Counted from the first letter of the stretch, positions 7,459-33,250 are shown. The stretch: 64,000 nucleotides of DNA from an uncultured Alphaproteobacteria bacterium (GCA_944389235.1 CALXLO010000001.1:26956-90955); one strand, 5' to 3'. The notes: generated from the sequence alone by a model not told the origin. Program-made: numbers and translations.

Positions 7459-7509
7459 TTGCCAATAATGGGCGGGGCGGATTTAGCCCGCGTTCTTGCC
7501 AATAATGGG
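7459..7509 (+). repeat. Two copies of the 14-nt direct repeat TTGCCAATAATGGG
   Basis: Identical 14-mers at 7459-7472 and 7496-7509 (37-nt period), 40-90 nt upstream of the OMP start at 7546. Confidence 0.8.
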
Positions 7510-7545
7510 GGACGCGTATTTCATCACAAAACATTGAAGGAGTAT

Positions 7546-8529
7546 ATGATGAAAAAAAGTTTGAAATTGGCGGTGGCGGCATCGGTTTTGGCGACACCGG
7601 CAATTGCGGGTAATGTTGAAAATCCGCTGTATTTACCAACATCTGGTGAATTTTATTCAAAAACATCTGCGGGGCTGATGGTAAAGATTGCTGACCATTC
7701 AGTTGCGCACGAGAAAAAAGGTCATGCAGGCGCAACAGAATTTCCGATTTGGCGCGTCCAAGAAGACTTGGGTATCGGTATTACAGACCGTTTGGCAGTT
7801 CGTGGTGCGTTTGCGTACACACATGACGATGATATTAATCGCAAAGGCATGAATCATGGTCGTATTGGTTTGATTTGGCGACCGGTTCAAACGCTGGATA
7901 ATGTTGTTCTAGATATCTATGCCGACGCGCATTTGGGTGGTATAAATAAGATGCGTGGCGCGTATACATCAAATGGTTTCCAGTATGATAACTATTCCAA
8001 CGGTCGTTGGGGCTTTGACGCTGGGGTTCGCTTTGGTAAGACTTGGAGCAAATTAACCACCAGTGCGTTTGTAGAAGTCTTGCAAACATTCGGCAACAGC
8101 CATAATGTTATTGATGTGTCCAGTCTGGGATTGTCGACCGTTGGTGTTCCAGATGAAATTTCTGTGAACTTGAAATCCACGACAGAGGTTAATTTTGGTC
8201 TGAACGCGTTTTATCAGATTGATGACCGTTGGTCTTGGGGTGCCGGTTTCAAATATAATCATCATGCAGACAATGGCGTAAGAAGTCTGGCAACCGAAAT
8301 CAGCAACCCAATGGGTCAGATGGTTGCAAATAAAATGATTGCAGAGTTAGCCGATATGCAAGATGGCTTTGATGAATACATCATCACGCTGTCGGCGGCA
8401 AATCAATTAACAGAATATGCCCAGGTTGTCTTGTATGGCGAATATACATTTGACACGGCACATCCTATGTCGCAAAACGGTACGGATGTCAAAGCCGAAG
8501 TAGGCTTGCGCTTGAACTTAGCGTTCTAG
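7546..8529 (+). CDS. Outer-membrane beta-barrel protein (porin-like)
   Basis: The ATG at 7546 is preceded by GAAGGAG. It has a signal peptide (MMKKSLKLAVAASVLATPAIAG), alternating beta-strand pattern and a C-terminal aromatic signature ...GLRLNLAF. Confidence 0.8.
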   Translation: MMKKSLKLAVAASVLATPAIAGNVENPLYLPTSGEFYSKTSAGLMVKIADHSVAHEKKGHAGATEFPIWRVQEDLGIGITDRLAVRGAFAYTHDDDINRKGMNHGRIGLIWRPVQTLDNVVLDIYADAHLGGINKMRGAYTSNGFQYDNYSNGRWGFDAGVRFGKTWSKLTTSAFVEVLQTFGNSHNVIDVSSLGLSTVGVPDEISVNLKSTTEVNFGLNAFYQIDDRWSWGAGFKYNHHADNGVRSLATEISNPMGQMVANKMIAELADMQDGFDEYIITLSAANQLTEYAQVVLYGEYTFDTAHPMSQNGTDVKAEVGLRLNLAF

Positions 8530-14087: not shown

Positions 14088-14867
14088 ATGGCACGATATA
14101 AAATAACTCTTGAATATGATGGAACAGATTTAATCGGTTGGCAACAAAATCGCCAAGGGCCGTCTGTGCAATCTTTGTTAATGGACGCAATCGAGAAATT
14201 TTGTGGTATGCGACCAGATGTTGTTGCCGCGGGGCGTACTGACGCGGGGGTGCATGCGATTGCGATGCCGGCACATTTTGATTTACCCAATGCGGCTGAT
14301 GCAAATACTGTTATGCGTGCAATGAATTTTTATTTAACAAATTCGCCGGTTTCAGTACTGGATTGCGAAATTGTGCCTGGTGATTTTAATGCGCGTTTTT
14401 CGTGTACTGCGCGTCATTACAAGTATGTTGTTTTGAATCGTGGTGCAGCACCAGCATTGGAAAAAAATCGCGTATGGTGGGTGCCAGGCAAACTGAATGT
14501 TTCTGCAATGTGTCGTGCAGCCATGCGACTGGTTGGTAATCATGATTTTACCAGTTTTCGCGCCACCCAGTGCCAAGCAAAAAGTCCGATAAAAACATTG
14601 GATTCTGTTAAAATTACTCGACGCGGTGATGCTATTATATTTGAATTTTCTGCCCGTTCGTTTTTACATCACCAGGTTCGTAATATGGTTGGTACTTTGG
14701 TTGAAATCGGTCGTGGTAAACCGTATGATATTGATGAAATTTTTGCGGCGTGTAATCGCAGTGCTGCGGGACCAACCGCGCCTGCGTCGGGTCTGTATTT
14801 TATTCGCGCGGATTATGCCACGGACGGTTATGGTGTACATACTGTACCCGACCAGACCCATAAATAA
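14088..14867 (+). CDS. truA: tRNA pseudouridine(38-40) synthase
   Basis: 259 aa starting MARYKITLEYDGTDLIGWQ, with the catalytic GRTDAGVHA motif. Confidence 0.93.
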   Translation: MARYKITLEYDGTDLIGWQQNRQGPSVQSLLMDAIEKFCGMRPDVVAAGRTDAGVHAIAMPAHFDLPNAADANTVMRAMNFYLTNSPVSVLDCEIVPGDFNARFSCTARHYKYVVLNRGAAPALEKNRVWWVPGKLNVSAMCRAAMRLVGNHDFTSFRATQCQAKSPIKTLDSVKITRRGDAIIFEFSARSFLHHQVRNMVGTLVEIGRGKPYDIDEIFAACNRSAAGPTAPASGLYFIRADYATDGYGVHTVPDQTHK

Positions 14868-16776
14868 CAAATCCACCGCGTAAAATTTTATGATTACATT
14901 TTGGGGCATCAACATCAAAATATGATACGATGTAGTCTATGTCTTTATCATCACACAATTTTTCTATATTTTTCATCAGTGGAACAAATTTTTGAATATA
15001 TGCCAATGTAAAATTTTGTGTTTCATATATCCATATACCGTCTGTGTGTTTGCGGCGACGATTTGGTGTTTGTGTTGGTTGACCATTAATTTGCTTCCAT
15101 GTGTCAAATGTAAAGTAATGATTTGATGCGCGGGATTTACTAAATTCCAGATTACCGTCCTGTCCAACAAATGCGACCAGTTCGTGGTCGTTTGTTGCAT
15201 AAAATACTGGTTTTGGGGTGTATATTACTATAAAAATGCCAATCGCAATACAGATTGCGCCGACTATATAGTTAATTTTGATGCGTATTGGCTTAATGAA
15301 CATTACGCATAATATCCCGATTATTGTCCAGCAAAGCGCGATATTTGCAATATGTGGCATATTAATGGTCGCCATCGGTAAATGTGCAATATGTTCTGCA
15401 ACGATATATGTTGCATCGTATATTGATTCTGCGATGTTCAGTGGGTAATTCCATCCAAACAGCGCAGTAATAATTCCGATGATTACCAGTGGCATAATTG
15501 CAACAGAAAATATAGGCAGCAATATCAAATTTCCAATCAGACTGTAAACAGGTATGCTGTAAAAATGCGCAATGACAAATGGTGCTGTGAATACAGTTGC
15601 CACCAGTGATGTCAGTATTGCGGCATAAATTGTTTTTAGTATTTTATTCTTTGGCATTTTAGGGTTTATGCCGTTCCACAACCACACCAATCCGAATATC
15701 GCAGCAAAAGATAACTGGAATCCTGGCTGCATAACATAGTGCGGATTCATTAAAAATATTATACAAAATGCAACACATACATTGCGCATAGAAATCGCAT
15801 TTCGTCCAAATATAAACGCCATAAATACTAATGTCGCCATTAAAAATGCGCGAACAGTTGCGACATCACATCCAGATAAAAACAAATAAAACAGTAAACC
15901 AATCCATGCACATATCAATGCTGGTATACGCGCAGGTACACGCCGTGTAATTGGTGCGATTAGGCGGAATATGAAATAAAAAATTGTAAACAACCACGCA
16001 GAAACCAGTGTTATATGAAACCCACTGATAGACCATACATGACCAACGCCGGTTGCTGTCCATATTTCACCATCTGATTTTGGAATTGCATTTTTATATC
16101 CCAGAACTAATGTGTCTGCCAAGAAAGATTTTGCACGGTTGTGTATATTGTTGCGCAGCACAGCAATTCCGCCATCATTCGCATTTGTGGTTGTATCATA
16201 ACTGTTTATATATCCTGTGGCAGTCAGTCCATTAAAATATGCCCATCTGGCATAGTCAAATGATTCTGGGGCATCTGGTCCATCGGGGCGAAATAATCCA
16301 ATTTGTGCGCGAATTTCGTCGCCAATATCTGGTGGGGTAATATCTGCCTTGGCAGAAACGCGAACGATGGCACGACCAACCCCGGCATTAATATCGTCGG
16401 CATTTATATTTAAGTATAATCTGGTTTTGTTATTTGTATAATCAATATGTTCAACTGTTGCGGGAATATCCAGTCCGTGTAATCCATGCGGAATTTGTGG
16501 TGTATTAATTATAAATGTAAATACAGCCGCATAACAAAATCCGAACACAAACAGTGAAACTGCGCGAACCAGAACATTTGTTTGTAACCAGCATAATATA
16601 ATTGCAACAAATCCGAATATTGCACATAAAATAATATTTGGTTCTGTTCCCAGATTAAAATACAATCCGGCACCAAAGGCCATTAAAAATGGCACCCATA
16701 AAAATAAATTTCCTGATTGATTTCGCCATAAATCAAGCATGCAAAAATTATAGGAATTTATTTCATTGCACCGCAA
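14800..16776 (-). CDS. comEC: ComEC/Rec2-family membrane channel protein (no metallo-beta-lactamase domain visible)
   Basis: 658 aa, polytopic. It has the competence-domain pattern (...GVGHVWSISGFHITLV...) and no HxHxDH motif in the C-terminal part. The start codon is uncertain (alternative M at 16740). Confidence 0.8.
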   Translation of the reverse strand: MRCNEINSYNFCMLDLWRNQSGNLFLWVPFLMAFGAGLYFNLGTEPNIILCAIFGFVAIILCWLQTNVLVRAVSLFVFGFCYAAVFTFIINTPQIPHGLHGLDIPATVEHIDYTNNKTRLYLNINADDINAGVGRAIVRVSAKADITPPDIGDEIRAQIGLFRPDGPDAPESFDYARWAYFNGLTATGYINSYDTTTNANDGGIAVLRNNIHNRAKSFLADTLVLGYKNAIPKSDGEIWTATGVGHVWSISGFHITLVSAWLFTIFYFIFRLIAPITRRVPARIPALICAWIGLLFYLFLSGCDVATVRAFLMATLVFMAFIFGRNAISMRNVCVAFCIIFLMNPHYVMQPGFQLSFAAIFGLVWLWNGINPKMPKNKILKTIYAAILTSLVATVFTAPFVIAHFYSIPVYSLIGNLILLPIFSVAIMPLVIIGIITALFGWNYPLNIAESIYDATYIVAEHIAHLPMATINMPHIANIALCWTIIGILCVMFIKPIRIKINYIVGAICIAIGIFIVIYTPKPVFYATNDHELVAFVGQDGNLEFSKSRASNHYFTFDTWKQINGQPTQTPNRRRKHTDGIWIYETQNFTLAYIQKFVPLMKNIEKLCDDKDIDYIVSYFDVDAPKCNHKILRGGFVIYGSGRVQYVHHNRPWHNPRE

Positions 16777-20432: not shown

Positions 20433-21620
20433 ATGAAGCGTCTGATAAGTGTGTTTTTTGCGTGTTTCATGCTGGCGATACCTGCGTTTGGGGCGCAATA
20501 TCGGGCGGCATTGGTGGCTGATATGGATTCTGGGTTAATATTATACCAAGAACATGCCGACGACCAAAATTATCCCGCCAGTTTAACAAAAATTATGACC
20601 TTGTATCTGACATTTGATGCATTGGAACATGGGCGGCTGCATCTGGATGATTATTTAATTGTTTCAAAATCTGCGGCGGCGGCGGAACCTGTAAAACTGG
20701 GCGTTGCCGCCGGCAGTAAAATAAAGGTAGAAGATGCAATAAAGGCACTAACCGTGCTTAGTGCGAATGATGTTGCGCGCGTGTTGGCGGAAAACTTAAA
20801 GGGTGGTCGCGAAGGCAATTTTGCAGATTTAATGACACGCGTGGCTGGTGAAATTGGTTTGTCTGGGACGAATTTTGAAAATTCATCTGGACTGCCAAAT
20901 GACGACCATTTATCAACGGCGCGTGATATTGCGCTGTTGGCAATGGCGGTGTATAAGCATTTTCCACAATATTGGCACTATTTTTCTATCAAGACATGGA
21001 CATATAACGGTAAAACATATACTAATGGTAATCGTTTGTTGGGAACATATCCGGGTTGCGATGGCATGAAAACAGGATATACACGCAAATCGCGGTATTC
21101 TTTGGTGGCAACCGCAAAGCGCGATGGTCGGCATTTGATGTCTGTGGTGCTGGGCGCAGAAAGCAAGGATGTGCGCGCAAATGTTTCAACGCGTATGCTG
21201 AACAAGGGTTTTGAAATGTTGGCAACAGGGGCGACCCCAGTTGTTGTTAATTCAGATGTACCCAGTTTACCACAAAATATTAATAATAATTCTGGGGTAA
21301 AATCGTCTGGGGCGGCGGCACCAACATTTGCATCGGCATATAATGCGGCGCGTGGTGCAATTGTTCCGAAATATTCGACGGCGAATACATCTGGGAATGC
21401 GCCCGGTAATGCAGGTGTACAATTTGGTGCGTTTTCATCACGCGCATCGGCACAAAGCCAGGTTCAAAATGTCTTGAACCAAATTGGGGTTAATACAGTT
21501 ATTGAAACTGCGCCAAATGGGATGTTTCGTGTGCGGGTAAATAATTTGTCAGAATCTGCGGCACAGAATATTCGCAATCGTGCACAAAATGCTGGTATAG
21601 ACTGTTATGTTTTTCATTAA
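20433..21620 (+). CDS. D-alanyl-D-alanine carboxypeptidase (PBP5/6 class) with C-terminal SPOR domain
   Basis: Signal peptide plus the SxxK (SLTKIMT), SxN (SAND) and KTG (KTGYT) motifs. The last 70 aa or so, GVQFGAFSSRASAQSQ...MFRVRVNNLSESAAQNIRNRAQNAGIDCYVF, form a classical SPOR pattern. Confidence 0.9.
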   Translation: MKRLISVFFACFMLAIPAFGAQYRAALVADMDSGLILYQEHADDQNYPASLTKIMTLYLTFDALEHGRLHLDDYLIVSKSAAAAEPVKLGVAAGSKIKVEDAIKALTVLSANDVARVLAENLKGGREGNFADLMTRVAGEIGLSGTNFENSSGLPNDDHLSTARDIALLAMAVYKHFPQYWHYFSIKTWTYNGKTYTNGNRLLGTYPGCDGMKTGYTRKSRYSLVATAKRDGRHLMSVVLGAESKDVRANVSTRMLNKGFEMLATGATPVVVNSDVPSLPQNINNNSGVKSSGAAAPTFASAYNAARGAIVPKYSTANTSGNAPGNAGVQFGAFSSRASAQSQVQNVLNQIGVNTVIETAPNGMFRVRVNNLSESAAQNIRNRAQNAGIDCYVFH

Positions 21621-27072: not shown

Positions 27073-27459
27073 TCAGACTGTTTGACCATTCGGCGCATTA
27101 AATTGTGCGGATGATGTGCGTAATTTTTTATACATTTGTCTGGGGGTAATTATATACGGTGCACGAATATTGACGGCAATTTTGCACAGTGTAACACATG
27201 ATGCCGCGTAATATGCGCGGCGCATAAAATCGTGCGGGATTTTACGGTTTATTTTTATAAATATCCACCCGTGTGCACTCAGCAGCCGGATTGTTCGTGG
27301 GGTCAGTGAAATTTGTGCAATATATTTACGCCGGACAAATTGATACATTATATAATGTTCATCAGATACGCATATAATCGGCGCACAGTGTCGGGGCGCA
27401 CGGCATAATAGCTGTGGCAGTTTTTTTGATGTATTTGGTGCAAATGCAATAATTATCAT
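27073..27459 (-). CDS. Hypothetical protein
   Basis: 128-aa basic ORF with AGGA 9 nt upstream of the ATG. I recognise no motif. Confidence 0.45.
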   Translation of the reverse strand: MIIIAFAPNTSKKLPQLLCRAPRHCAPIICVSDEHYIMYQFVRRKYIAQISLTPRTIRLLSAHGWIFIKINRKIPHDFMRRAYYAASCVTLCKIAVNIRAPYIITPRQMYKKLRTSSAQFNAPNGQTV

Positions 27460-27509: not shown

Positions 27510-27857
27510 TTATTCAATCCATCCGTTTTCTTTGGCTGCGTTGCCAATAATTTCCATTGCGCTGTGCCACAATGCAGCATCATGGTTTTCTGACCATATA
27601 TATTGATGTGGGGCGCGCCGCCGGTCGCCGTATTTTTTCATAACAGATAATTGGGCATCTGATAATCGTCCGGCCAGATACAGTTTAGTAATTAATGTTT
27701 CAACATCCAGCAATTCGCACACGCGTCGGGTTGCCGCATTGCGTATGCGTGAAAATCCATTTTGAACAGATTTTGAATACAAAAACCAGAACCACAGTTG
27801 TTCAGCACTTTGGAACTTTTCTGCTGGATATATGATTTGTGTATTTTGTGATGTCAT
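27510..27857 (-). CDS. Hypothetical protein (possible helix-turn-helix C-terminal half)
   Basis: 115-aa ORF with a strong AAGGAG RBS 8 nt upstream. The segment ...LYLAGRLSDAQLSVMKKYG... is reminiscent of sigma-70 region-4/LuxR-type HTHs, but the similarity is weak. Confidence 0.6.
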   Translation of the reverse strand: MTSQNTQIIYPAEKFQSAEQLWFWFLYSKSVQNGFSRIRNAATRRVCELLDVETLITKLYLAGRLSDAQLSVMKKYGDRRRAPHQYIWSENHDAALWHSAMEIIGNAAKENGWIE

Positions 27858-28030: not shown

Positions 28031-28058
28031 AAAATAAAAACGCGCGCAATATGCGCGC
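28031..28058 (-). terminator. Second intrinsic terminator downstream of virB10
   Basis: GCGCGCA-ata-TGCGCGC hairpin, followed on the minus strand by GTTTTTATTTT. Confidence 0.45.
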
Positions 28059-28125
28059 AAAAAAGTATATCAAGATTATAGTTTAGTATATAGTGTACAC
28101 TCCCTTGGTTTTTCAATACCTGGTT

Positions 28126-28157
28126 AAAAACAAACCCGCCATTTTGGCGGGTTTGTT
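28126..28157 (-). terminator. Intrinsic terminator immediately after virB10
   Basis: On the minus strand: AACAAACCCGCC-aaaat-GGCGGGTTTGTT followed by TTTAACC. It starts 2 nt after the stop codon. Confidence 0.75.
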
Positions 28158-28158
28158 A

Positions 28159-30627
28159 TCATAGTATCGGCGGGAAACAGTCGCCCCCCGATTCTGGACA
28201 ACAGTTAAAACCCTGGTCGCCCATATCTGTATATATTTCACCCGGGCAGCAACCAAATTCATCCGGTGCAATGCCCCCGTCGCATGTTATTGCAGCATCT
28301 GTGGTTGCTGTGGTATCTGTTGTGGTGTCGGTGGATGCAAACGGATTTTGAATTGTGCCCGCGTCAGTATATGTCAGCCCCAAGATATCTTGATTATATG
28401 CCTGTTGTTGTTCTGCGGTTTGATTTGCTGCTGTTCCGTATGTACTTTGGAATGCCTGTTGCTGACTTTGAGAATATGCTTCTTGTTGGGCATTGCTGAT
28501 TGCCTGGTAATTCAATGATTGACAATATGCCAAAACAGTTCTGTAATCATAACCTGATTCTTGTATATCTTGTTCTTGGTCTGGTTTTATATCCCAAACG
28601 CCGCTAGAATCAGTTTGACAAAATTTTTCCAGACTAAATGAACGCACTTGACCTTCCCATGAACCATCAGAGTAGTTTGGTTCTGGTACATGTTCCATCC
28701 ATGATTCATTGCGTTTATTTCTGCTTTTTTCTTCGGCTGCGAAACCAGTTGCAGCCTTTACTTTGTTAACAGAACATTCTTTACTGTCATCTGTGCCACA
28801 TGTTATAACCAAGTCTTGTGGGGAATACACTGTTATACGGGTGCCCGCAGCAATGGAAAACGGCGGTACGGTATTGTCCATTGCATCAACCAGTAATTTT
28901 TGTGCAACCTGGTTCCATGCAGAAATGATTTCTTGTTTTGCCAATTCAGATGAACGCATTGTACCCGATTGCACAACTGTATTATTATCTAAATCAATTT
29001 GATTAACAAACACATCTGATATTGGCGCAATCATATTTACCGCGGCGGGTACAATTGCCGTTAACATCGGCATAACCAATTGTTCAACATAATCCGTACT
29101 GCCGTATCCGGGAATGCCAACGCGCCCCTGGGAATCGCCTGAAAACGGCGTATTATTACCATTAAAGTTAAATTCAACGCCACTGGGTAATATGAATTGA
29201 TACCAATTTATATCCATGCGCCCAATTGTTGTATATGGACCGGGTAATGTACCTGTGACATACCCCAGCATCAGTGTACCCGTTGGAATTATAACTGTGC
29301 GTCCATCATCTGCGTATACATTGCGGTCAACCGTTGCGCGTACTGGTAATGTTTGACCTTGTTTGTACAGTGATGGGTCGGCGCGTACCTCTGATACAAT
29401 GGTGGCAGGAATTGGTTTGTATTGCCGTAATACAAATTTTCTGTCAAATGGGTCAGATGAAAATACCGCTGTGCCACTGGTACCGACAATAACATCACTT
29501 TGTGGTGCAGGGGTCAGGTTTATACCAGGGGCTTTTGTCGTGTCTTCTGGGATTGGTGCCGCCATTAATTCCGCCGTAGTTAACTGTGTTGCTTTATATA
29601 CTTCGGTTTTTGTTGCCGGATTAGATAATTGCGGCAAAGTGCCATTTTGTATTGTTGTGTATCCGATGTGTTCTGCATCTGTACCGATTTTTTGTGCCGC
29701 GTTATCAATATCTGTAATCAACCCGTTATCAGGGTTATATACCCCAGTTGGCGAATTGCATTCTGTATCAGAAAATGGGTGAAAATAATATGTTCCACCG
29801 CTGGGGCGAATCCATCCGCTTTGCACACCAGACAAATTATAACCCGGCATGGCGAAATCAGAACATGCATCAGACGGGGTGGGGGCAGATGTTGTTTGCG
29901 TCATAACAGATGTATCTGATTCAATATCGTCAAATAATAAATCATCGTCCGGTGCAATTTCATTTATTTCTGATTGTATTTGTTGCGAAATTGTGGCAAC
30001 AGGTTCCGGTTTTTGCGTGATAACCGGTTCTGGTTCCACAACAGGTTCCGGTTTTGGTTCGGGCGCTGGTTCTGGTTCGGGTTCGGGTTCAGCCACAGGT
30101 TCTGGTTCCGCCACAGGTTCTGTGGCACCGACAATTGCGACAATTTTATCTTGCTTTTTCATTGCATCTGGTTCATTTACACCGCGCCAGTCAATAAATA
30201 TATTTGCAGATTGCGGTTTTGCCGCTGCACTGGGGGCGTATGTTAACACAATCGTGCATGAATTTTGGTCATCAATGCGTTCCAGTGTTGTGCATGTTTC
30301 TTGCTTGCTTAATCCTGGAATATCAGCATCTATGTTAATGTCTATAATTTTAGCCGGCGCATTTGCAGAAATTCTGAATGTTTCTGATTTTGCGTCGTCA
30401 ACCATAACCGATGGCCATTCAACAGTTTCTGGTGTAATTGCCAGATTTATTGCGATGTCATCTGTGTTTTCTATTTCTTGATTATCATTGCTGTTATTGG
30501 TCAGCAACAATGTTAATAATATCAAAACGACAACAAACGCCGCCGCCAACAGCAACCATTGCACATTCTTTGGCGTGTTTTTACGCATATCAGAAAATTG
30601 TTTTTTTATATTCAGTTTCATTTGCAA
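28159..30627 (-). CDS. virB10: VirB10/TrbI-family T4SS protein, greatly expanded (822 aa)
   Basis: N-terminal TM (aa 24-43) and a Pro-rich PEP/PEPV tract (aa 169-210). The TrbI/VirB10 core lies at about aa 395-608 (...IPATIVSEVRADPS...VRATVDRNVYADDGRTVIIPTGTLMLGYV...GRVGIPGYGSTDYVEQLVMPMLTAIV...AAGTRITVYSPQDL). There is an extra domain at aa 55-165 and a 214-aa C-terminal extension. Confidence 0.85.
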   Translation of the reverse strand: MQMKLNIKKQFSDMRKNTPKNVQWLLLAAAFVVVLILLTLLLTNNSNDNQEIENTDDIAINLAITPETVEWPSVMVDDAKSETFRISANAPAKIIDINIDADIPGLSKQETCTTLERIDDQNSCTIVLTYAPSAAAKPQSANIFIDWRGVNEPDAMKKQDKIVAIVGATEPVAEPEPVAEPEPEPEPAPEPKPEPVVEPEPVITQKPEPVATISQQIQSEINEIAPDDDLLFDDIESDTSVMTQTTSAPTPSDACSDFAMPGYNLSGVQSGWIRPSGGTYYFHPFSDTECNSPTGVYNPDNGLITDIDNAAQKIGTDAEHIGYTTIQNGTLPQLSNPATKTEVYKATQLTTAELMAAPIPEDTTKAPGINLTPAPQSDVIVGTSGTAVFSSDPFDRKFVLRQYKPIPATIVSEVRADPSLYKQGQTLPVRATVDRNVYADDGRTVIIPTGTLMLGYVTGTLPGPYTTIGRMDINWYQFILPSGVEFNFNGNNTPFSGDSQGRVGIPGYGSTDYVEQLVMPMLTAIVPAAVNMIAPISDVFVNQIDLDNNTVVQSGTMRSSELAKQEIISAWNQVAQKLLVDAMDNTVPPFSIAAGTRITVYSPQDLVITCGTDDSKECSVNKVKAATGFAAEEKSRNKRNESWMEHVPEPNYSDGSWEGQVRSFSLEKFCQTDSSGVWDIKPDQEQDIQESGYDYRTVLAYCQSLNYQAISNAQQEAYSQSQQQAFQSTYGTAANQTAEQQQAYNQDILGLTYTDAGTIQNPFASTDTTTDTTATTDAAITCDGGIAPDEFGCCPGEIYTDMGDQGFNCCPESGGDCFPPIL
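29998..30123 (-). repeat. Short tandem GGTTCN-type repeats encoding the VirB10 (E/K)P tract
   Basis: The plus strand reads ...ggttccggttttggttcgggcgctggttctggttcgggttcgggttcagccacaggttctggttccgccacaggttctgtggca... It contains imperfect hexamer and 18-mer repeats. Confidence 0.8.
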
Positions 30628-30636
30628 CCATCAATA

Positions 30637-32169
30637 TTATTGTATGCGTACCACACTGCAACTGGTGCCGCTGAATTCCAGCAGTTTGTTGCATAATTCT
30701 TGGGCGGTATTAATATCGCTTAACGGGCCAATGCGCAGACGATATAACCGCGCCGCAGATGATTCAGCCCCCAGTTCACCAACACCCTGTTCATCAACCG
30801 CAAAGAACACCATGTCTTTGTATGGGGTTAATATACCTTGACCGTCATCACCGCTGAATTTCGCCAGCAGGTTTGCCCAATAATCATCCAGTGCCTTGAC
30901 CGAAGTATCAGATTTCAGTTCAACCGCAACCCCGGTTTGATTACTGGTAATCAGTGGAATATTTGATTGTGGCAAGAAAGAACCGGCGGTTATTCGTTCT
31001 GTGGGTACCATTGTAACCCCAGAACCACCGCTGGCACCACTATATACCGCGGTTGGCATTGCGTACCCAGCCGGCGCATAATAGCCAGTTGTTGAACCCG
31101 CAGGGGCATTACCAATCATCATCGGTGTTGTTGTGTATCCATTCGCCGATGCGTTAATTGCGGCCTGGTTCGCACTGTATGCCAAATTATTTAATGATTG
31201 ACCAGACATAATACTTTGTGCAACATTCGCCTCGGCCAATGCCATAACAGACGCGGTGTCTGCAATCAAGAACGGCTTTTCGCGCTTTTTAATACATACC
31301 AGACGCTGACCACTGCGCAGAACCATATCACCGACAGCCTCAACAATTAACAAGCGACCGTCTTCGCCATCTGTGCGGAAACCGACCGGGGATTCGCCAC
31401 CTTCTATTAATAATGAAACCACAGGTCGCTGGGTCATGGAAATAACCTTGTCCCCAAAATCGATATATGTAAATATCTGGTCGCGCCATACGCGTTCAGG
31501 GGCAATTACATAATCGTCTGGGTTGGGAACAAAAATATCCAAATCAAAGCGAAATTCTGATGGGTCAATCTTCATAGATTTTATCCAACCGTAATCTTCG
31601 CCATCAACACCAACAGTATTTGCTGTATTTGTTGCCTTTTTGAATATTGACGCAGACCCCCCAGATGCTGGTGTTGGTGTTGCAGACGCAGACAATGTGG
31701 AATTGCCGTCCAGCATAACATCAACCTGGGAATATGTAATTTCACTGGAATTAGATGGTTCACTGCGTAAATAAAACACATATTGGTTTCCTGATTCACC
31801 AGACACAATCAGGTTTGTATCAGAACCCTGGTTGCTGGTTACCGGTGTAATAAACATAGTGTTTCCGCCCTGGGTCGCATCGATAGAAAACAGGCTGCTG
31901 TTGCCGACAACCGCGTCGGCGATTTTTTCACCATTCGGCATGGTTATTAATGTTGTCATTCCATTGCGCAGTTTAACGGGCAAAACACTGCCCTTGGACC
32001 AAGTTAATTGGGCGTATCCAGGTTTAACACTGCCCGCTGCCATGTTTGCGGTTGGATTATCCCACGCGCTTTGCACGCCATAGTTTGTGCCCGCCGCCAA
32101 TGCAGTACCACATAACATTGTTAAGCATAATATAGATGCGTTCAGTCGCAGTGCGTTAAAAACTGTCAT
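30637..32169 (-). CDS. virB9: VirB9/CagX/TrbG-family T4SS protein with C-terminal SPOR-like domain (510 aa)
   Basis: Signal peptide (...LCGTALAAG) and a VirB9 N-domain (...VLPVKLRNGMTTLITMPNGEKIADAVVGNSSLFSID...NLIVSGESGNQYVFYL). The VirB9 C-domain reads ...PERVWRDQIFTYIDFGDK...PVVSLLIEGGESPVGFRTDGEDGRLLIVEAVGDMVLRSGQRLVCIKK. This is followed by a low-complexity linker and ...LYRLRIGPLSDINTAQELCNKL... Confidence 0.85.
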   Translation of the reverse strand: MTVFNALRLNASILCLTMLCGTALAAGTNYGVQSAWDNPTANMAAGSVKPGYAQLTWSKGSVLPVKLRNGMTTLITMPNGEKIADAVVGNSSLFSIDATQGGNTMFITPVTSNQGSDTNLIVSGESGNQYVFYLRSEPSNSSEITYSQVDVMLDGNSTLSASATPTPASGGSASIFKKATNTANTVGVDGEDYGWIKSMKIDPSEFRFDLDIFVPNPDDYVIAPERVWRDQIFTYIDFGDKVISMTQRPVVSLLIEGGESPVGFRTDGEDGRLLIVEAVGDMVLRSGQRLVCIKKREKPFLIADTASVMALAEANVAQSIMSGQSLNNLAYSANQAAINASANGYTTTPMMIGNAPAGSTTGYYAPAGYAMPTAVYSGASGGSGVTMVPTERITAGSFLPQSNIPLITSNQTGVAVELKSDTSVKALDDYWANLLAKFSGDDGQGILTPYKDMVFFAVDEQGVGELGAESSAARLYRLRIGPLSDINTAQELCNKLLEFSGTSCSVVRIQ

Positions 32170-32192
32170 GCCTTTACCCTTTCCATTTCTTT

Positions 32193-32957
32193 TTACATCT
32201 GTTCATTGACACTGGCCAGATATCCTGTATCCAACGGGTCGCCATTATCGGATTCAATTATATATTCCGAAACGCGTATCCCCAACGGATTATTCAATCG
32301 TTCATCCCAACGGATTGTGGCATTGTCATCAATATCCAGTTTTATTCTTATTTTATACTCTTTTTTATCCATCTGTCTATTACTATCTGAACAGAAATAG
32401 CGAAAACTGATAGTATATTCTGTACCAGCTAAATCAACAGGCTCTATTGCGCCATTGTCAAATTCCACAGAACAAGAAAATTCAAAATCGGGAACGCCAC
32501 TCATCCACGCGTTCCACATATTTGTTTGCGTAAATGCGTTATATACATCTTGGGTTGACCATGCGTGTATTACACCGTTTTCATCGTTATTCCATTTTTT
32601 GCGCATTTCTGCGACATCTGGCACAATTTCATTGCGTGCGCGGATATATTCGCGAATAAATGACCGTTTGAAATTGCCCATATTTTCATCAACAGGTACC
32701 ATTTCACGCAACACGACCGGCAAATCATCTTTGGGTGCGGTCATTAAAAAGAACACTTGCGGTCGGTTAGTTGGAAACATATTGTACAGTGCAAACAGCA
32801 TCGCAACCAGCACAACCAGCATTGCGGCAAACACAAATGCCATCAATCTAGACAGTAAAATTGGCGGTTCTACGCGGTCTTGCAAGGTATTACTCTCTCG
32901 GTTATATATGTGGATTGTAGACAAAAATGCGACGCGTACGCAAGTGAAAAAGTACAT
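32193..32957 (-). CDS. virB8: VirB8-family T4SS protein
   Basis: Has a single TM (LMAFVFAAMLVVLVAMLFALY) and a periplasmic NTF2-like part (...FKRSFIREYIRARNEI...YNAF...YKIRIKLDID...). The start is uncertain: an internal TTG preceded by GAGAGAG is an alternative. Confidence 0.75.
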   Translation of the reverse strand: MYFFTCVRVAFLSTIHIYNRESNTLQDRVEPPILLSRLMAFVFAAMLVVLVAMLFALYNMFPTNRPQVFFLMTAPKDDLPVVLREMVPVDENMGNFKRSFIREYIRARNEIVPDVAEMRKKWNNDENGVIHAWSTQDVYNAFTQTNMWNAWMSGVPDFEFSCSVEFDNGAIEPVDLAGTEYTISFRYFCSDSNRQMDKKEYKIRIKLDIDDNATIRWDERLNNPLGIRVSEYIIESDNGDPLDTGYLASVNEQM

Positions 32958-33107
32958 AAACTAAATTTTGTGGATTTCACTTTTCACTTGCGCAGACATA
33001 ATTAAAACTTTATAATAAATTCCGCTTGATTTTCCGTATAAGTGTGGTACTGTATCGCAGAATATTGGGGTCAAGCGGTATACGACAGGTAAAAATACTG
33101 ATAACCT

Positions 33108-33181
33108 AGGGGCATAGTTCAACGGTAGAATATCGGTCTCCAAAACCGCGGATGAGGGTTCGATTCCTTCTGCCCCTGCCA
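33108..33181 (+). tRNA. tRNA-Trp (anticodon CCA)
   Basis: AGGGGCATAGTTCAACGGTAGAATATCGGTCTCCAAAACCGCGGATGAGGGTTCGATTCCTTCTGCCCCTGCCA. The anticodon loop is CTCCAAA and CCA is encoded. It sits in the conserved position upstream of secE-nusG. Confidence 0.92.
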
Positions 33182-33250
33182 CAGAATTTCGTTGTTAGTA
33201 TTGCTGGCGACGGATTTTTGTGAAAACAGATTTGTACAGGTATAAATTAT

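What the first reader, a model, noticed from the sequence alone, without database searches (positions are those of the whole stretch)
28159..32957. Stand-alone virB8-virB9-virB10 operon with no ATPase, pilin or VirB6 partner in 64 kb
Three tightly spaced ORFs (gaps of 23 and 9 nt) match VirB8, VirB9 and VirB10 by motif. A strong intrinsic terminator begins 2 nt after virB10, and a second follows about 70 nt later. None of VirB4, VirB11, VirD4, VirB6 or VirB2/3/5 is in the window, and the flanks are core genes (lspA-yidC; tRNA-Trp-secE-nusG). Split T4SS loci are known in Rickettsiales, but there virB8-9-10 normally continue into virB11-virD4. Here the module stops at virB10, and both VirB9 and VirB10 carry extra domains. 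This suggests a remodelled outer-membrane core complex, possibly with a function beyond a canonical T4SS.
Basis: partly seen in the sequence, partly recalled or inferred. Interest (0 to 1): 0.7.

Follow-up and report, generated by a model that had tools for sequence, protein, structure and literature searches.

The report
Remodelled T4SS core operon, gut symbiont
Three adjacent genes in an uncultured, tiny-genome gut bacterium (Candidatus Enterousia) encode the envelope-spanning scaffold of a type IV secretion machine with unusual extra domains, but the motor genes are not nearby and I could not check whether they exist elsewhere in the genome.

Summary
Window 32957..28159 (- strand) holds a three-gene operon. 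Its products pass the Pfam gathering cut-offs for VirB8, CagX/VirB9 and TrbI/VirB10, and it ends in the two intrinsic terminators described. No other T4SS gene lies in the window or in about 12 kb of added flank.

The organism is Candidatus Enterousia (Alphaproteobacteria, order Rs-D84), a 0.7-1.0 Mb gut bacterium predicted to depend on a partner. The operon sits at the same core-genome site (nusG | virB8-9-10 | orf115 orf128 | yidC) in all 88 related loci, with median dN/dS of 0.10-0.24. It is therefore neither a mobile element nor a pseudogene.

The extra domains are specific. VirB9 carries a C-terminal SPOR peptidoglycan-binding domain. VirB10 (about 820 aa) adds an ASH/PapD-like Ig domain, an unassigned conserved domain, and a C-terminal extension ending in a 6-Cys module shared with small membrane-anchored peptides.

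Distant lineages (GC 33-59%) carry the same three-gene block among housekeeping genes. A sister lineage continues into virB11.

Most likely this is the scaffold of a chromosomal P-type T4SS whose ATPase, VirB6 and pilin genes lie elsewhere, as in Rickettsia. That step is inferred: no whole-genome inventory was possible. An ATPase-less, co-opted complex remains possible (about 15%).

The parts
32193..32957 (-). virB8-like gene (254 aa as ORF). The product is a bitopic inner-membrane protein with its TM at residues 38-56. The true start may lie downstream, because conservation begins near residue 27.
   Evidence: Pfam VirB8 PF04335 at 40.1 bits, above GA 23.2. Single hydrophobic segment found. 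75 full-length orthologues with median dN/dS 0.24.
30637..32169 (-). virB9-like gene (510 aa): signal peptide, then the VirB9 N- and C-terminal domains, a variable linker, and a C-terminal SPOR domain.
   Evidence: Pfam CagX at 78.3 bits, above GA 34.2, residues 54-295. 68-100% identity across 88 loci. Median dN/dS 0.10. 38-40% identical over residues 32-297 to VirB9 of Sphingomonadales conjugative plasmids.
30640..30987 (-). C-terminal SPOR-type (peptidoglycan-binding) domain of VirB9, about residues 395-510.
   Evidence: The window copy scores 18.7 bits, just below GA 21. 24 of 25 orthologues match PF05036, best E 2.3e-5. Distant lineages L090, L095 and L091 score 26-29 bits, above GA. The domain is absent from the closest plasmid VirB9 proteins.
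28159..30627 (-). virB10-like gene (822 aa from TTG 30627; probably 820 aa from ATG 30621).
   Evidence: Pfam TrbI at 55.7 bits, above GA 35, residues 401-607. Profile search against PDB: ComB10 5.5e-10, CagY 2.7e-5, TrwE 1.6e-3, Xanthomonas VirB10 5.4e-3. Full-length orthologues in 88 of 88 loci with median dN/dS 0.21.
30499..30606 (-). VirB10 N-terminal cytoplasmic tail and transmembrane helix (residues 8-43), almost invariant across the clade.
   Evidence: Invariant columns K8..T43 in alignments A1 and A5. Hydrophobic segment at residues 25-43.
30124..30450 (-). VirB10 periplasmic Ig-like beta-sandwich domain (residues 60-168) of ASH/PapD/MSP type, with a conserved Cys112/Cys124 pair.
   Evidence: This is the only confident part of the AF2 model, at pLDDT about 80. 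Foldseek top hit is 6fvi, an ASH/PapD-like domain, at E 9.6e-6 and TM-target 0.58. There is a weak NCBIfam choice-of-anchor D hit.
29983..30123 (-). VirB10 Pro/Glu-rich (PEPEP) linker, residues 169-215. Its length varies between strains.
   Evidence: 15 Pro and 12 Glu/Asp in 47 residues. There are weak TonB-like hits. VirB10 is 812-821 aa in strains whose VirB9 is identical.
29593..29883 (-). VirB10 'domain X' (residues 249-345): a highly conserved domain with no family assignment (CSDFAMPGYNLSGVQSGWIRP...C...GTDAEHIGY...LPQLSNP).
   Evidence: Near-invariant block in A1 and A5. The core motif (C255, G267, GW272, C290, G295) is kept down to 22% overall identity. No Pfam or NCBIfam hit. The AF2 model is not confident here.
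28792..29475 (-). VirB10 TrbI beta-barrel domain (residues 385-612), including the hydrophobic antenna helix at residues 518-541.
   Evidence: Pfam TrbI. Hydrophobic segment VMPMLTAIVPAAVNMIAPI. Helices 514-541 and 561-583 in the model. Invariant across the clade.
28162..28791 (-). VirB10 C-terminal extension (residues 613-822): a Gln-rich helical region followed by a 6-Cys module at residues 782-822 (C-x9-GCC-x14-CC-x6-CFPP).
   Evidence: Conserved in orthologues. The module recurs in one to three copies in small secreted or TM-anchored proteins. No Pfam family covers it.
28126..28156 (-). Intrinsic terminator directly after virB10: 11-bp stem, 5-nt loop, T-run.
   Evidence: Read from the sequence. 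An equivalent perfect-stem terminator occurs in 74 of 88 loci.
28031..28059 (-). Second terminator-like hairpin plus T-run.
   Evidence: Consensus scan and the sequence itself.
27510..27857 (-). orf115: a conserved 115-aa gene with its own AGGAG ribosome-binding site and its own terminator. It is a separate transcription unit that is always next to the operon in Enterousia. Its function is unknown and a link to the T4SS is unproven.
   Evidence: 59-100% identity in 86 loci. Median dN/dS 0.17. No Pfam, NCBIfam or PDB relatives. Not related to the ORF in the same position in distant lineage L091.
27073..27459 (-). orf128: a conserved small protein with invariant C19, H24 and C88 and no signal peptide. 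Its function is unknown. It is a neighbour, not shown to be part of the system.
   Evidence: 31-100% identity in 81 loci. Median dN/dS 0.34. No Pfam or PDB hit. Not a known RNA.
32958..33107 (.). 150-nt intergenic region between tRNA-Trp (+ strand) and virB8. It presumably holds the operon promoter, which I did not map.
   Evidence: The promoter-like hits in this region are no more frequent than in shuffled sequence.

Best explanation
The operon encodes the envelope-spanning scaffold of a chromosomally fixed, vertically inherited P-type (VirB-like) type IV secretion system in Candidatus Enterousia.

Proposed roles of the three products:
- VirB8 is the bitopic inner-membrane assembly subunit.
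- VirB9 and VirB10 form the outer-membrane core complex.
- VirB10 bridges both membranes: an invariant cytoplasmic tail and TM helix, a Pro-rich spacer, then a TrbI barrel whose hydrophobic antenna helices line the outer-membrane pore.

The lineage has remodelled the complex in three ways:
- VirB9 is tethered to peptidoglycan through a fused SPOR domain. No VirB7-like lipoprotein gene is seen at the locus, and this domain may take over its anchoring role.
- VirB10 carries extra periplasmic modules: an ASH/PapD-like Ig domain and 'domain X'.
- VirB10 also carries a C-terminal extension that ends in a disulfide-rich 6-Cys module.

The energising and inner-membrane parts (VirB4, VirB3, VirB6, possibly VirB11 and VirD4) are expected to be encoded at other loci, as in the scattered rvh system of Rickettsia. 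The machine is probably used for contact-dependent exchange with the unknown partner or host on which this metabolically crippled bacterium depends.

Shown: family membership, domain architecture, operon boundaries, core-genome location, purifying selection, and absence of partners nearby.
Inferred: the existence of partner genes elsewhere, the assembly, the substrate and the direction of transport.
For: - Family membership: Pfam hits above the gathering cut-off for all three. Remote but significant profile matches to solved T4SS parts: ComB10, CagY, TrwE, Xanthomonas VirB10 and TrwF.
- Topology is as expected for a T4SS core.
- Location: the same site in 88 of 88 loci from at least 80 species, with core genes on both sides. 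GC content matches the flanks.
- Selection: median dN/dS 0.10-0.24 with intact ORFs.
- The cytoplasmic tail and TM helix of VirB10 are almost invariant, which argues for a conserved inner-membrane or cytoplasmic partner.
- The closest annotated relatives (VirB9 38-40% identical) are complete VirB2-B11/D4 clusters.
- A sister chromosomal lineage has VirB9 43% identical and a weak SPOR match. It runs VirB8-VirB8-VirB9-VirB10 into a VirB11 ATPase, so this T4SS type does work with ATPases.
- Split T4SS loci are established in Rickettsia (PMC2653234).
- The host organism is a 0.75-1.0 Mb predicted obligate symbiont or parasite that lacks standard nutrient transporters (PMC12306168).
Against: - No VirB4, VirB6, VirB3, VirB2, VirB11 or VirD4 was found anywhere I could look. 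That covers the window, about 12 kb of extra flank, +-10 kb of the operon in 88 loci, and about 40 kb of other regions from related genomes.
- The only genome paper on the clade does not mention a T4SS.
- The same three-gene block without ATPases also occurs in distant lineages, so long-term uncoupling from virB11/virD4 is real.
- The proteins are so divergent that they fall far below the NCBIfam equivalog cut-offs.
- No substrate, relaxase or effector is known.
Confidence: 0.6

Rival explanations
1. An ATPase-less, co-opted complex. The lineage has lost the T4SS motors and keeps only VirB8-VirB9-VirB10 as a peptidoglycan-anchored, TonB-like envelope-spanning structure. It could serve as an outer-membrane pore, an envelope tether or an adhesion platform, working passively or powered by something other than a T4SS ATPase.
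For: - The operon is sealed by conserved terminators.
- No partner gene was found in any DNA I sampled.
- The same isolated block occurs among housekeeping genes in lineages with GC 33-59%.
- The added domains (SPOR, Ig-like, 6-Cys module) are of anchoring or binding type.
- The clade's genome paper does not mention a T4SS.
Against: - Only about 10% of a genome was sampled.
- As far as I know, no functional VirB8-10 module without VirB4 has been described (my own knowledge, not tested here).
- VirB8 and the invariant cytoplasmic tail of VirB10 only make sense with inner-membrane partners.
- The sister lineage keeps virB11 next to virB10.
Confidence: 0.15
2. A ComB-like DNA-uptake T4SS. The module is the outer part of a competence system that brings DNA across the outer membrane to ComEC, as in Helicobacter pylori. 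There comB6-10 also lacks virB11/virD4 and comB2-4 is a separate operon. The imported DNA would supply nucleotides that the cell cannot make.
For: - The best solved-structure relative of the VirB10 family is ComB10 (E 5.5e-10, against 1.6e-3 for TrwE). There is also an NCBIfam ComB10 hit at 45.8 bits.
- The operon ends at virB10.
- ComEC is encoded 12 kb away at 14800-16776 and is conserved in relatives.
- The clade lacks nucleotide biosynthesis, and type IV pili were reported only for another lineage (PMC12306168).
Against: - NCBIfam scores VirB10 above ComB10 (56.8 against 45.8 bits), and both are far below their cut-offs.
- By tblastn, VirB9 is closest to alphaproteobacterial plasmid VirB9 rather than Helicobacter.
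- No ComB6 or ComB7 equivalents lie upstream of virB8.
- ComB4 is just as unverified as VirB4.
- The ComB10 preference may only reflect which fragment was crystallised.
Confidence: 0.12
3. A decaying remnant of an integrated conjugative element or plasmid T4SS that has no function.
For: The closest annotated relatives of VirB9 are on conjugative or mobilizable plasmids.
Against: - The operon occupies a fixed core-genome position in at least 80 species.
- ORFs are intact and median dN/dS is 0.10-0.24.
- GC content equals that of the flanks.
- No relaxase, integrase or repeats are seen at the locus.
- The lineage-specific extra domains are themselves conserved.
Confidence: 0.02

Closest known systems
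Rickettsiales vir homolog (rvh) T4SS (Gillespie et al. 2009, PMC2653234)
   Same: A chromosomal, vertically inherited P-type T4SS in a reduced-genome alphaproteobacterium. Its genes are scattered in separate islets among housekeeping genes, and no VirB5 or canonical VirB7 is seen nearby.
   Different: In the rvh system virB8-9-10 run on into virB11-virD4, and VirB8 and VirB9 are duplicated. Here the operon ends at virB10 with a conserved terminator, and VirB8 and VirB9 are single-copy. VirB9 has a SPOR domain, and VirB10 is about twice the usual length with an Ig-like domain, domain X and a Cys-rich tail. Whether the other islets exist is unknown.
VirB/D4 conjugative systems of Sphingomonadales plasmids (Sphingosinicella p1 NZ_CP035502.1; Erythrobacter aureus NZ_CP031358.1)
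   Same: These are the closest annotated sequences: VirB9 is 38-40% identical over residues 32-297 (E about 1e-47) and the VirB10 TrbI domain about 26%. The order VirB8-VirB9-VirB10 is the same.
   Different: The plasmid clusters are complete (VirB2, B3, B4, B5, B6, B8-B11, D4 and a MobA/MobL relaxase) and mobile. Their VirB9 (430 aa) has no SPOR hit and their VirB10 is 530-548 aa.
Helicobacter pylori ComB DNA-uptake T4SS (ComB10, PDB 2bhv)
   Same: It gives the best solved-structure match for the VirB10 family. As I recall, the comB6-10 operon likewise stops at the VirB10 homologue with no VirB11 or VirD4, and works with ComEC.
   Different: The similarity is remote. No ComB6 or ComB7 genes lie upstream here. 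ComB proteins lack the SPOR, Ig-like and Cys-rich additions.
Xanthomonas X-T4SS and H. pylori Cag outer-membrane core complexes (PDB 6gyb; CagX/CagY)
   Same: These are precedents for decorating the VirB7/9/10 core with lineage-specific extra domains, such as the VirB7 N0 domain and the CagY repeats. Profile matches to the Xanthomonas VirB10 and to CagY were found.
   Different: The added domains are different. Those systems are encoded in single large clusters together with their ATPases.
Giant-VirB10 chromosomal T4SS of other gut Alphaproteobacteria (loci L113-L116)
   Same: VirB9 is 43% identical, with a weak C-terminal SPOR hit. The cluster lies among housekeeping genes.
   Different: VirB10 is 644-2220 aa and VirB8 is duplicated. 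The cluster continues into a VirB11-type ATPase (T2SSE, E 1.2e-23).

Membership tests
VirB8 (PF04335) | Profile match above the curated cut-off | tested here: met
   40.1 bits against GA 23.2, residues 27-234 of 254.
VirB8 (PF04335) | Bitopic topology: short cytoplasmic N-terminus, one TM helix, periplasmic domain | tested here: met
   A single hydrophobic segment at residues 38-56. The fold of the periplasmic domain was not modelled.
VirB9 / CagX (PF03524) | Profile match above the curated cut-off that covers both VirB9 domains | tested here: met
   78.3 bits against GA 34.2, profile positions 5-197 of 198. All 25 of 25 orthologues match. The family profile matches TrwF at 8.7e-4.
VirB9 equivalog (TIGR02781) | Score above the NCBIfam equivalog cut-off | tested here: not met
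   57.9 bits against a cut-off of 217.7. It is a divergent member, not an equivalog of the characterised VirB9.
VirB10 / TrbI (PF03743) | Profile match above the curated cut-off | tested here: met
   55.7 bits against GA 35, profile positions 3-187 of 188. The family profile matches ComB10, CagY, TrwE and Xanthomonas VirB10.
VirB10 / TrbI (PF03743) | N-terminal TM helix, Pro-rich spacer, C-terminal barrel with hydrophobic antenna helices | tested here: met
   TM helix at residues 25-43, Pro/Glu region at 169-215, hydrophobic helix at 518-541 inside the TrbI domain.
VirB10 equivalog (NF038091) / ComB10 equivalog (NF038092) | Score above the NCBIfam cut-off | tested here: not met
   56.8 bits against 220, and 45.8 bits against 300.
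SPOR domain (PF05036) on VirB9 | Profile match above the curated cut-off | tested here: inconclusive
   The window copy scores 18.7 bits, below GA 21. However, 24 of 25 orthologues match at E<=0.01, and L090, L095 and L091 score 26-29 bits, above GA. The feature is met at family level. Peptidoglycan binding was not tested.
Complete P-type (VirB/D4, MPF-T) T4SS | A VirB4-family ATPase, which is the mandatory component | not testable with these tools
   Absent from the window, from its flanks and from every sampled locus. No whole Enterousia genome could be read.
Complete P-type (VirB/D4, MPF-T) T4SS | VirB6, VirB3 and VirB2 inner-membrane and pilus components | not testable with these tools
   No tblastn or Pfam hit in any held DNA. 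The genome-wide status is unknown.
Complete P-type (VirB/D4, MPF-T) T4SS | VirB11 and VirD4 ATPases | tested here: inconclusive
   Not adjacent to virB10 in any of the 88 loci. The search with the nearest VirB11 was saturated by that query's own clade.
Rickettsiales rvh T4SS | Contiguous virB8-virB9-virB10-virB11-virD4 islet | tested here: not met
   The operon ends at virB10 with a terminator, and the next genes are orf115, orf128 and yidC.
Rickettsiales rvh T4SS | Duplicated VirB8, VirB9 and VirB4, and an expanded VirB6 family | not testable with these tools
   The locus has single copies of VirB8 and VirB9. Paralogues elsewhere could not be searched.
ComB DNA-uptake system | comB6-comB7 directly upstream of comB8-10, and a separate comB2-4 operon | tested here: not met
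   tRNA-Trp and secE lie upstream of virB8, and no ORF lies in the 150-nt gap. The ComB4 part is untestable.
ComB DNA-uptake system | Partner inner-membrane DNA channel ComEC | tested here: met
   Competence plus DUF4131 protein at 14800-16776, conserved in L127. Its presence is not specific to ComB systems.

The most novel reading that the evidence does not exclude
Enterousia and its relatives have no T4SS ATPases at all. In that case the VirB8-VirB9(SPOR)-VirB10 trio would be a T4SS-derived, peptidoglycan-anchored envelope-spanning complex, kept on its own under purifying selection across a deep clade of sub-megabase genomes. It would have been repurposed as a motor-less or differently energised conduit or attachment organelle for taking DNA or nutrients from a partner cell.
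Probability: 0.15. Interest if true: 0.85.

Novelty: new variant of a known kind. Interest (0 to 1): 0.5.

Why it matters
Candidatus Enterousia (order Rs-D84) is widespread in animal and human guts. Its genomes are below 1 Mb and lack the central biosynthetic pathways and standard nutrient transporters. How it lives, and on whom, is unknown (PMC12306168).

A conserved, heavily remodelled T4SS core is the first concrete candidate for its partner-interaction machinery, and I found no mention of it in the literature. The VirB9-SPOR fusion and the long VirB10 define a chromosomal T4SS lineage that spans very different genomes (GC 33-59%). They also offer a natural experiment in how the outer-membrane core complex can be anchored without a VirB7 gene at the locus.

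If the ATPases prove to be absent, this would be the first T4SS scaffold known to be kept without its motors.

Tried and rejected
1. Whole-genome inventory of T4SS partners: not achievable.
   - The single genome-contig scan went on taxonomy and synteny.
   - Walking along contigs is blocked, because only window proteins or search hits may be looked up.
   - Two look-ups failed on start-codon or exact-match issues.
The 120 listed hits were all at least 65% identical members of L114's own clade, so the result is uninformative.
3. Sampling other genome regions through the 6-Cys module family. This found an ABC-exporter operon and housekeeping genes but no T4SS genes.
4. AF2 model of VirB10. Mean pLDDT was 45.6 and only the Ig-like domain is usable. 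The TrbI barrel, domain X and the C-terminal extension were not modelled with confidence.
5. orf128 as a hidden RNA gene: rejected. Rfam finds only three tRNAs in the window, and orf128 is conserved as a protein with dN/dS 0.34.
6. orf115 and orf128 as ancestral parts of the module: rejected. They are unrelated to the ORF that follows virB10 in L091, and they have no Pfam or PDB relatives.
7. A virB11 remnant downstream of virB10 in some species: none found. The 1.2-kb insertions in L029 and L030 have no convincing ORF.
8. Literature searches:
   - Enterousia or Rs-D84 together with T4SS: nothing.
   - VirB9 together with SPOR domain: nothing.
   - Hepatincolaceae: not relevant to this clade.
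9. Mobile-element origin: rejected on synteny, GC content and selection.

Full report
**The observation**

The three ORFs are on the minus strand at exactly the stated coordinates: 32957..32193 (254 aa), 32169..30637 (510 aa) and 30627..28159 (822 aa). The gaps between them are 23 and 9 nt. The VirB10 start is more probably the ATG at 30621, which public gene calls use.

All three proteins pass Pfam's curated cut-offs:
- VirB8: 40.1 bits against 23.2.
- CagX/VirB9: 78.3 bits against 34.2.
- TrbI/VirB10: 55.7 bits against 35.

They fall far below the NCBIfam equivalog cut-offs: VirB9 57.9 against 217.7, VirB10 56.8 against 220, ComB10 45.8 against 300. Single-sequence matches to solved T4SS structures are marginal. 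So they are true but very divergent family members.

The two terminators are in the sequence as described. The first is an 11-bp stem at 28156-28130 plus a T-run, starting 2 nt after the stop codon. The second is at 28059-28031.

The flanks are lspA-yidC on one side and tRNA-Trp-secE-nusG-rplKAJL-rpoBC on the other. orf115 (27857..27510) has its own Shine-Dalgarno sequence and its own terminator. orf128 lies at 27459..27073.

No other T4SS family is present in the window. Pfam covered the T4SS candidates and every ORF whose function was not obvious from its sequence, 34 in all. The remaining ORFs are ordinary core genes, read from their translations or from the Pfam tables. tblastn with VirB2/3/4/5/6/11/D4 from the closest annotated system also found nothing.

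**The organism**

A scan of species-representative genomes returned 80 loci that encode a full-length relative of VirB10 at 47-67% identity. Many are named Candidatus Enterousia and all come from animal or human gut MAGs. They include closed chromosomes of 958,618 bp and 716,531 bp. NCBI places the genus in Alphaproteobacteria incertae sedis, and GTDB places it in order Rs-D84 (PMC12306168). GapR lies nearby, which fits Alphaproteobacteria.

The one genomic study of the clade describes genomes of 0.75-1.0 Mb. They have no TCA cycle or respiration, incomplete glycolysis, no amino-acid, nucleotide or lipid biosynthesis, and no standard nutrient transporters. The authors propose an obligate symbiont or parasite lifestyle with an unknown partner. 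The paper does not mention a T4SS. I found no paper that links the clade to T4SS genes.

**A fixed, selected core-genome feature**

In all 88 loci held, the gene order is nusG | virB8 virB9 virB10 orf115 orf128 | yidC lspA ..., wherever the contig reaches that far. These loci are 8 metagenome contigs and 80 species representatives. Strains with identical VirB9 differ only in the length of the PEPEP repeat of VirB10.

Orthologues are intact. Median pairwise dN/dS values are:

| Gene | Median dN/dS |
|---|---|
| VirB8 | 0.24 |
| VirB9 | 0.10 |
| VirB10 | 0.21 |
| orf115 | 0.17 |
| orf128 | 0.34 |

A perfect-stem terminator directly after virB10 occurs in 74 of 88 loci. GC content does not differ from that of the flanks.

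**The extra domains**

VirB9 (alignment A4) consists of:
- a signal peptide;
- the two VirB9 domains, with residues 187-330 almost invariant;
- a variable linker;
- a C-terminal domain of about 115 residues.

In the window copy the C-terminal domain just misses the Pfam SPOR cut-off, at 18.7 against 21 bits. It matches SPOR in 24 of 25 orthologues. It scores 26-29 bits, above the cut-off, in three distant lineages. The closest plasmid VirB9 proteins lack it. No paper in the library mentions VirB9 together with a SPOR domain.

VirB10 (alignments A1, A5 and A6) consists of:
- an almost invariant cytoplasmic tail and TM helix (residues 8-43);
- a beta-sandwich at residues 60-168. This is the only confident part of the AF2 model (pLDDT about 80). 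It matches ASH/PapD/MSP Ig-like domains (6fvi, E 9.6e-6);
- a Pro/Glu-rich spacer at residues 169-215;
- a highly conserved, unassigned 'domain X' at residues 249-345;
- the TrbI barrel at residues 385-612, with a hydrophobic antenna helix at 518-541;
- a 210-residue C-terminal extension that ends in a 6-Cys module (C-x9-GCC-x14-CC-x6-CFPP).

The 6-Cys module recurs, in one to three copies, in small secreted or TM-anchored proteins. The small TM-anchored versions sit in a conserved operon with a MacB/FtsX-type ABC exporter.

**Relatives and evolutionary context**

An exhaustive HMMER search found only 641 representatives at E <= 1e-3, which shows how divergent this VirB10 is. Profile searches against PDB give the following:

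| Query family | Best solved relatives (E-value) |
|---|---|
| VirB10 | ComB10 (5.5e-10), CagY (2.7e-5), TrwE (1.6e-3), Xanthomonas VirB10 (5.4e-3) |
| VirB9 | TrwF (8.7e-4) |

The closest annotated genes are on Sphingomonadales plasmids, with VirB9 38-40% identical at E about 1e-47. They sit in complete VirB2-B11/D4 clusters with a MobA/MobL relaxase.

The long VirB10 architecture (TM helix, Ig-like domain, acidic linker, domain X, TrbI) persists down to 22% identity. Metagenome contigs that carry such distant members showed two patterns:

(a) Lineages with GC 59%, 52% and 33% (L090, L095, L091), plus L112, have VirB8-VirB9(SPOR)-VirB10. L112 begins within virB10, so only its downstream side is seen. 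The block is flanked directly by housekeeping genes: an ATP-synthase-type ATPase, LptD, IleRS, a porin, Obg, SodB, MiaB and dnaX. The operon therefore also stops at virB10 in these lineages.

(b) A lineage with giant VirB10 proteins of 644-2220 aa (L113-L116) has, in the one complete locus (L114), two VirB8 genes and a VirB9 that is 43% identical to ours with a weak SPOR hit. All four loci have a 325-329-aa VirB11-type ATPase (T2SSE, E 1.2e-23 for the L114 copy) directly after virB10. In L114 housekeeping genes follow it.

This T4SS type is therefore an old chromosomal lineage. At least one branch of it demonstrably keeps an ATPase next to the scaffold genes.

**The missing partners**

This is the crux, and I could not settle it. 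The regions I could examine were:
- the window (64 kb);
- about 10 kb to its right (L089) and about 2 kb to its left (L130);
- +-10 kb around the operon in 88 genomes;
- about 40 kb of other regions from related genomes, reached through the Cys-module proteins.

None of them contains VirB2/3/4/5/6/11/D4, by Pfam or by tblastn with the Sphingomonadales references. Together this is only about a tenth of a genome.

The remaining routes were closed. The search with the nearest VirB11 was saturated by that query's own clade. A negative result here therefore says little.

**Interpretation**

Most likely (about 0.6), the operon encodes the scaffold of a split, chromosomally fixed P-type T4SS, comprising VirB8 and the VirB9/VirB10 core complex. 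The VirB4, VirB6 and VirB3 genes, and possibly VirB11 and VirD4, would lie elsewhere. This is the arrangement established for Rickettsia, whose Vir genes are scattered in three to five islets (PMC2653234). The arguments are:
- VirB8 and the invariant cytoplasmic tail of VirB10 imply inner-membrane partners;
- the sister lineage retains virB11;
- the organism's predicted dependence on a partner makes a contact-dependent transporter plausible;
- to my knowledge, no functional VirB8-10 module without VirB4 has been described.

The function is inferred and not shown. It could be effector delivery, DNA uptake or nutrient uptake.

Two live rivals remain. The first is a ComB-like DNA-uptake system working with the nearby ComEC (about 0.12). 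It is suggested by the ComB10 preference, the missing virB11/virD4 and the lack of nucleotide synthesis. The second is a truly ATPase-less, co-opted, peptidoglycan-anchored envelope complex (about 0.15). A decaying mobile-element remnant is excluded.

**Verdict**

The finding is real and better than chance, and it is not an artefact. It is a new variant of a known kind: a divergent T4SS core with a VirB9-SPOR fusion and a multi-domain VirB10, in an unstudied and widespread gut lineage, and not reported in the literature I could search.

The headline claim of a stand-alone module with a function beyond a T4SS rests on 7% of a genome and remains untested. Interest is moderate (0.5). It would rise sharply if closed Enterousia genomes prove to lack VirB4.

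Noticed in passing
window 27510-27857 (-) and 27073-27459 (-): Two small genes of unknown function always follow the operon in Enterousia. orf115 is 59-100% identical across species and has its own ribosome-binding site and terminator. orf128 has invariant Cys19, His24 and Cys88 and no signal peptide. Neither has a Pfam, NCBIfam or PDB relative.
   Followed up: partly
window 28162-28284 (VirB10 residues 782-822); L118 4898-10987; proteins P0174, P0229, P0231, P0261, P0429, P0434, P0438: A module of about 40 residues with six Cys (C-x5-9-GCC-x14-CC-x5-6-C[FY]PP) has no Pfam family. It ends VirB10 and also occurs, in one to three copies, in small secreted or TM-anchored proteins. The 44-58-aa versions (P0438, P0433) sit in a conserved operon: 108 aa, 446 aa, FtsX/MacB permease, ABC ATPase, 238 aa, 223 aa, the peptide, 278 aa.
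   Followed up: partly
L114 895-12077; L115 4847-12504; L116 104-5163; L113 86-4548: A related gut alphaproteobacterial lineage encodes giant VirB10 homologues of up to 2,220 aa. The TrbI domain is at the C-terminus and a VirB11 ATPase follows. In L114 they are preceded by two VirB8 paralogues and a 611-aa VirB9. The protein upstream of VirB10 in L113 carries a 5-fold beta-flower domain.
   Followed up: partly
L090 7695-11917; L095 7556-12046; L091 160-4214; L112 55-1272: Lineages with GC 59%, 52% and 33% carry the same isolated VirB8-VirB9(SPOR)-VirB10 block between unrelated housekeeping genes. L112, whose contig begins within virB10, likewise has housekeeping genes directly downstream. Uncoupling from virB11/virD4 is therefore ancient and is not specific to Enterousia.
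   Followed up: partly
window 14800-16776 (-): A ComEC competence channel (Competence plus DUF4131) is encoded 12 kb from the operon and is conserved in relatives (L127). No type IV pilus genes are seen in the window. This raises the question of how DNA would cross the outer membrane.
   Followed up: no
window 46423-48162 (-), 48550-50130 (-), 50261-52501 (+), 58374-61085 (-), 7459-8529 (+): A cluster of likely surface or host-interaction proteins: a 579-aa protein with 52 cysteines and no Pfam hit, a PLD-family phospholipase, a 746-aa unknown protein, a 903-aa protein with Chlamydia PMP repeats, and an autotransporter-like protein.
   Followed up: no
window 29983-30123 (VirB10 residues 169-215); L001-L006: The PEPEP linker of VirB10 varies in length between strains whose VirB9 is 100% identical. 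VirB10 ranges from 812 to 822 aa.
   Followed up: no
L029 12530-13735; L030, same position: Two species have an insertion of about 1.2 kb between virB10 and orf115. It has no convincing ORF and its nature is unknown.
   Followed up: no
window 20433-21620 (+): The D-Ala-D-Ala carboxypeptidase of this genome also carries a C-terminal SPOR domain (34 bits). SPOR is therefore used more than once in this small genome.
   Followed up: no
window 32961-33182 (-): A 73-aa ORF called as a gene in some public records (L004, L006) is simply the antisense strand of tRNA-Trp. It is almost certainly a spurious call.
   Followed up: yes
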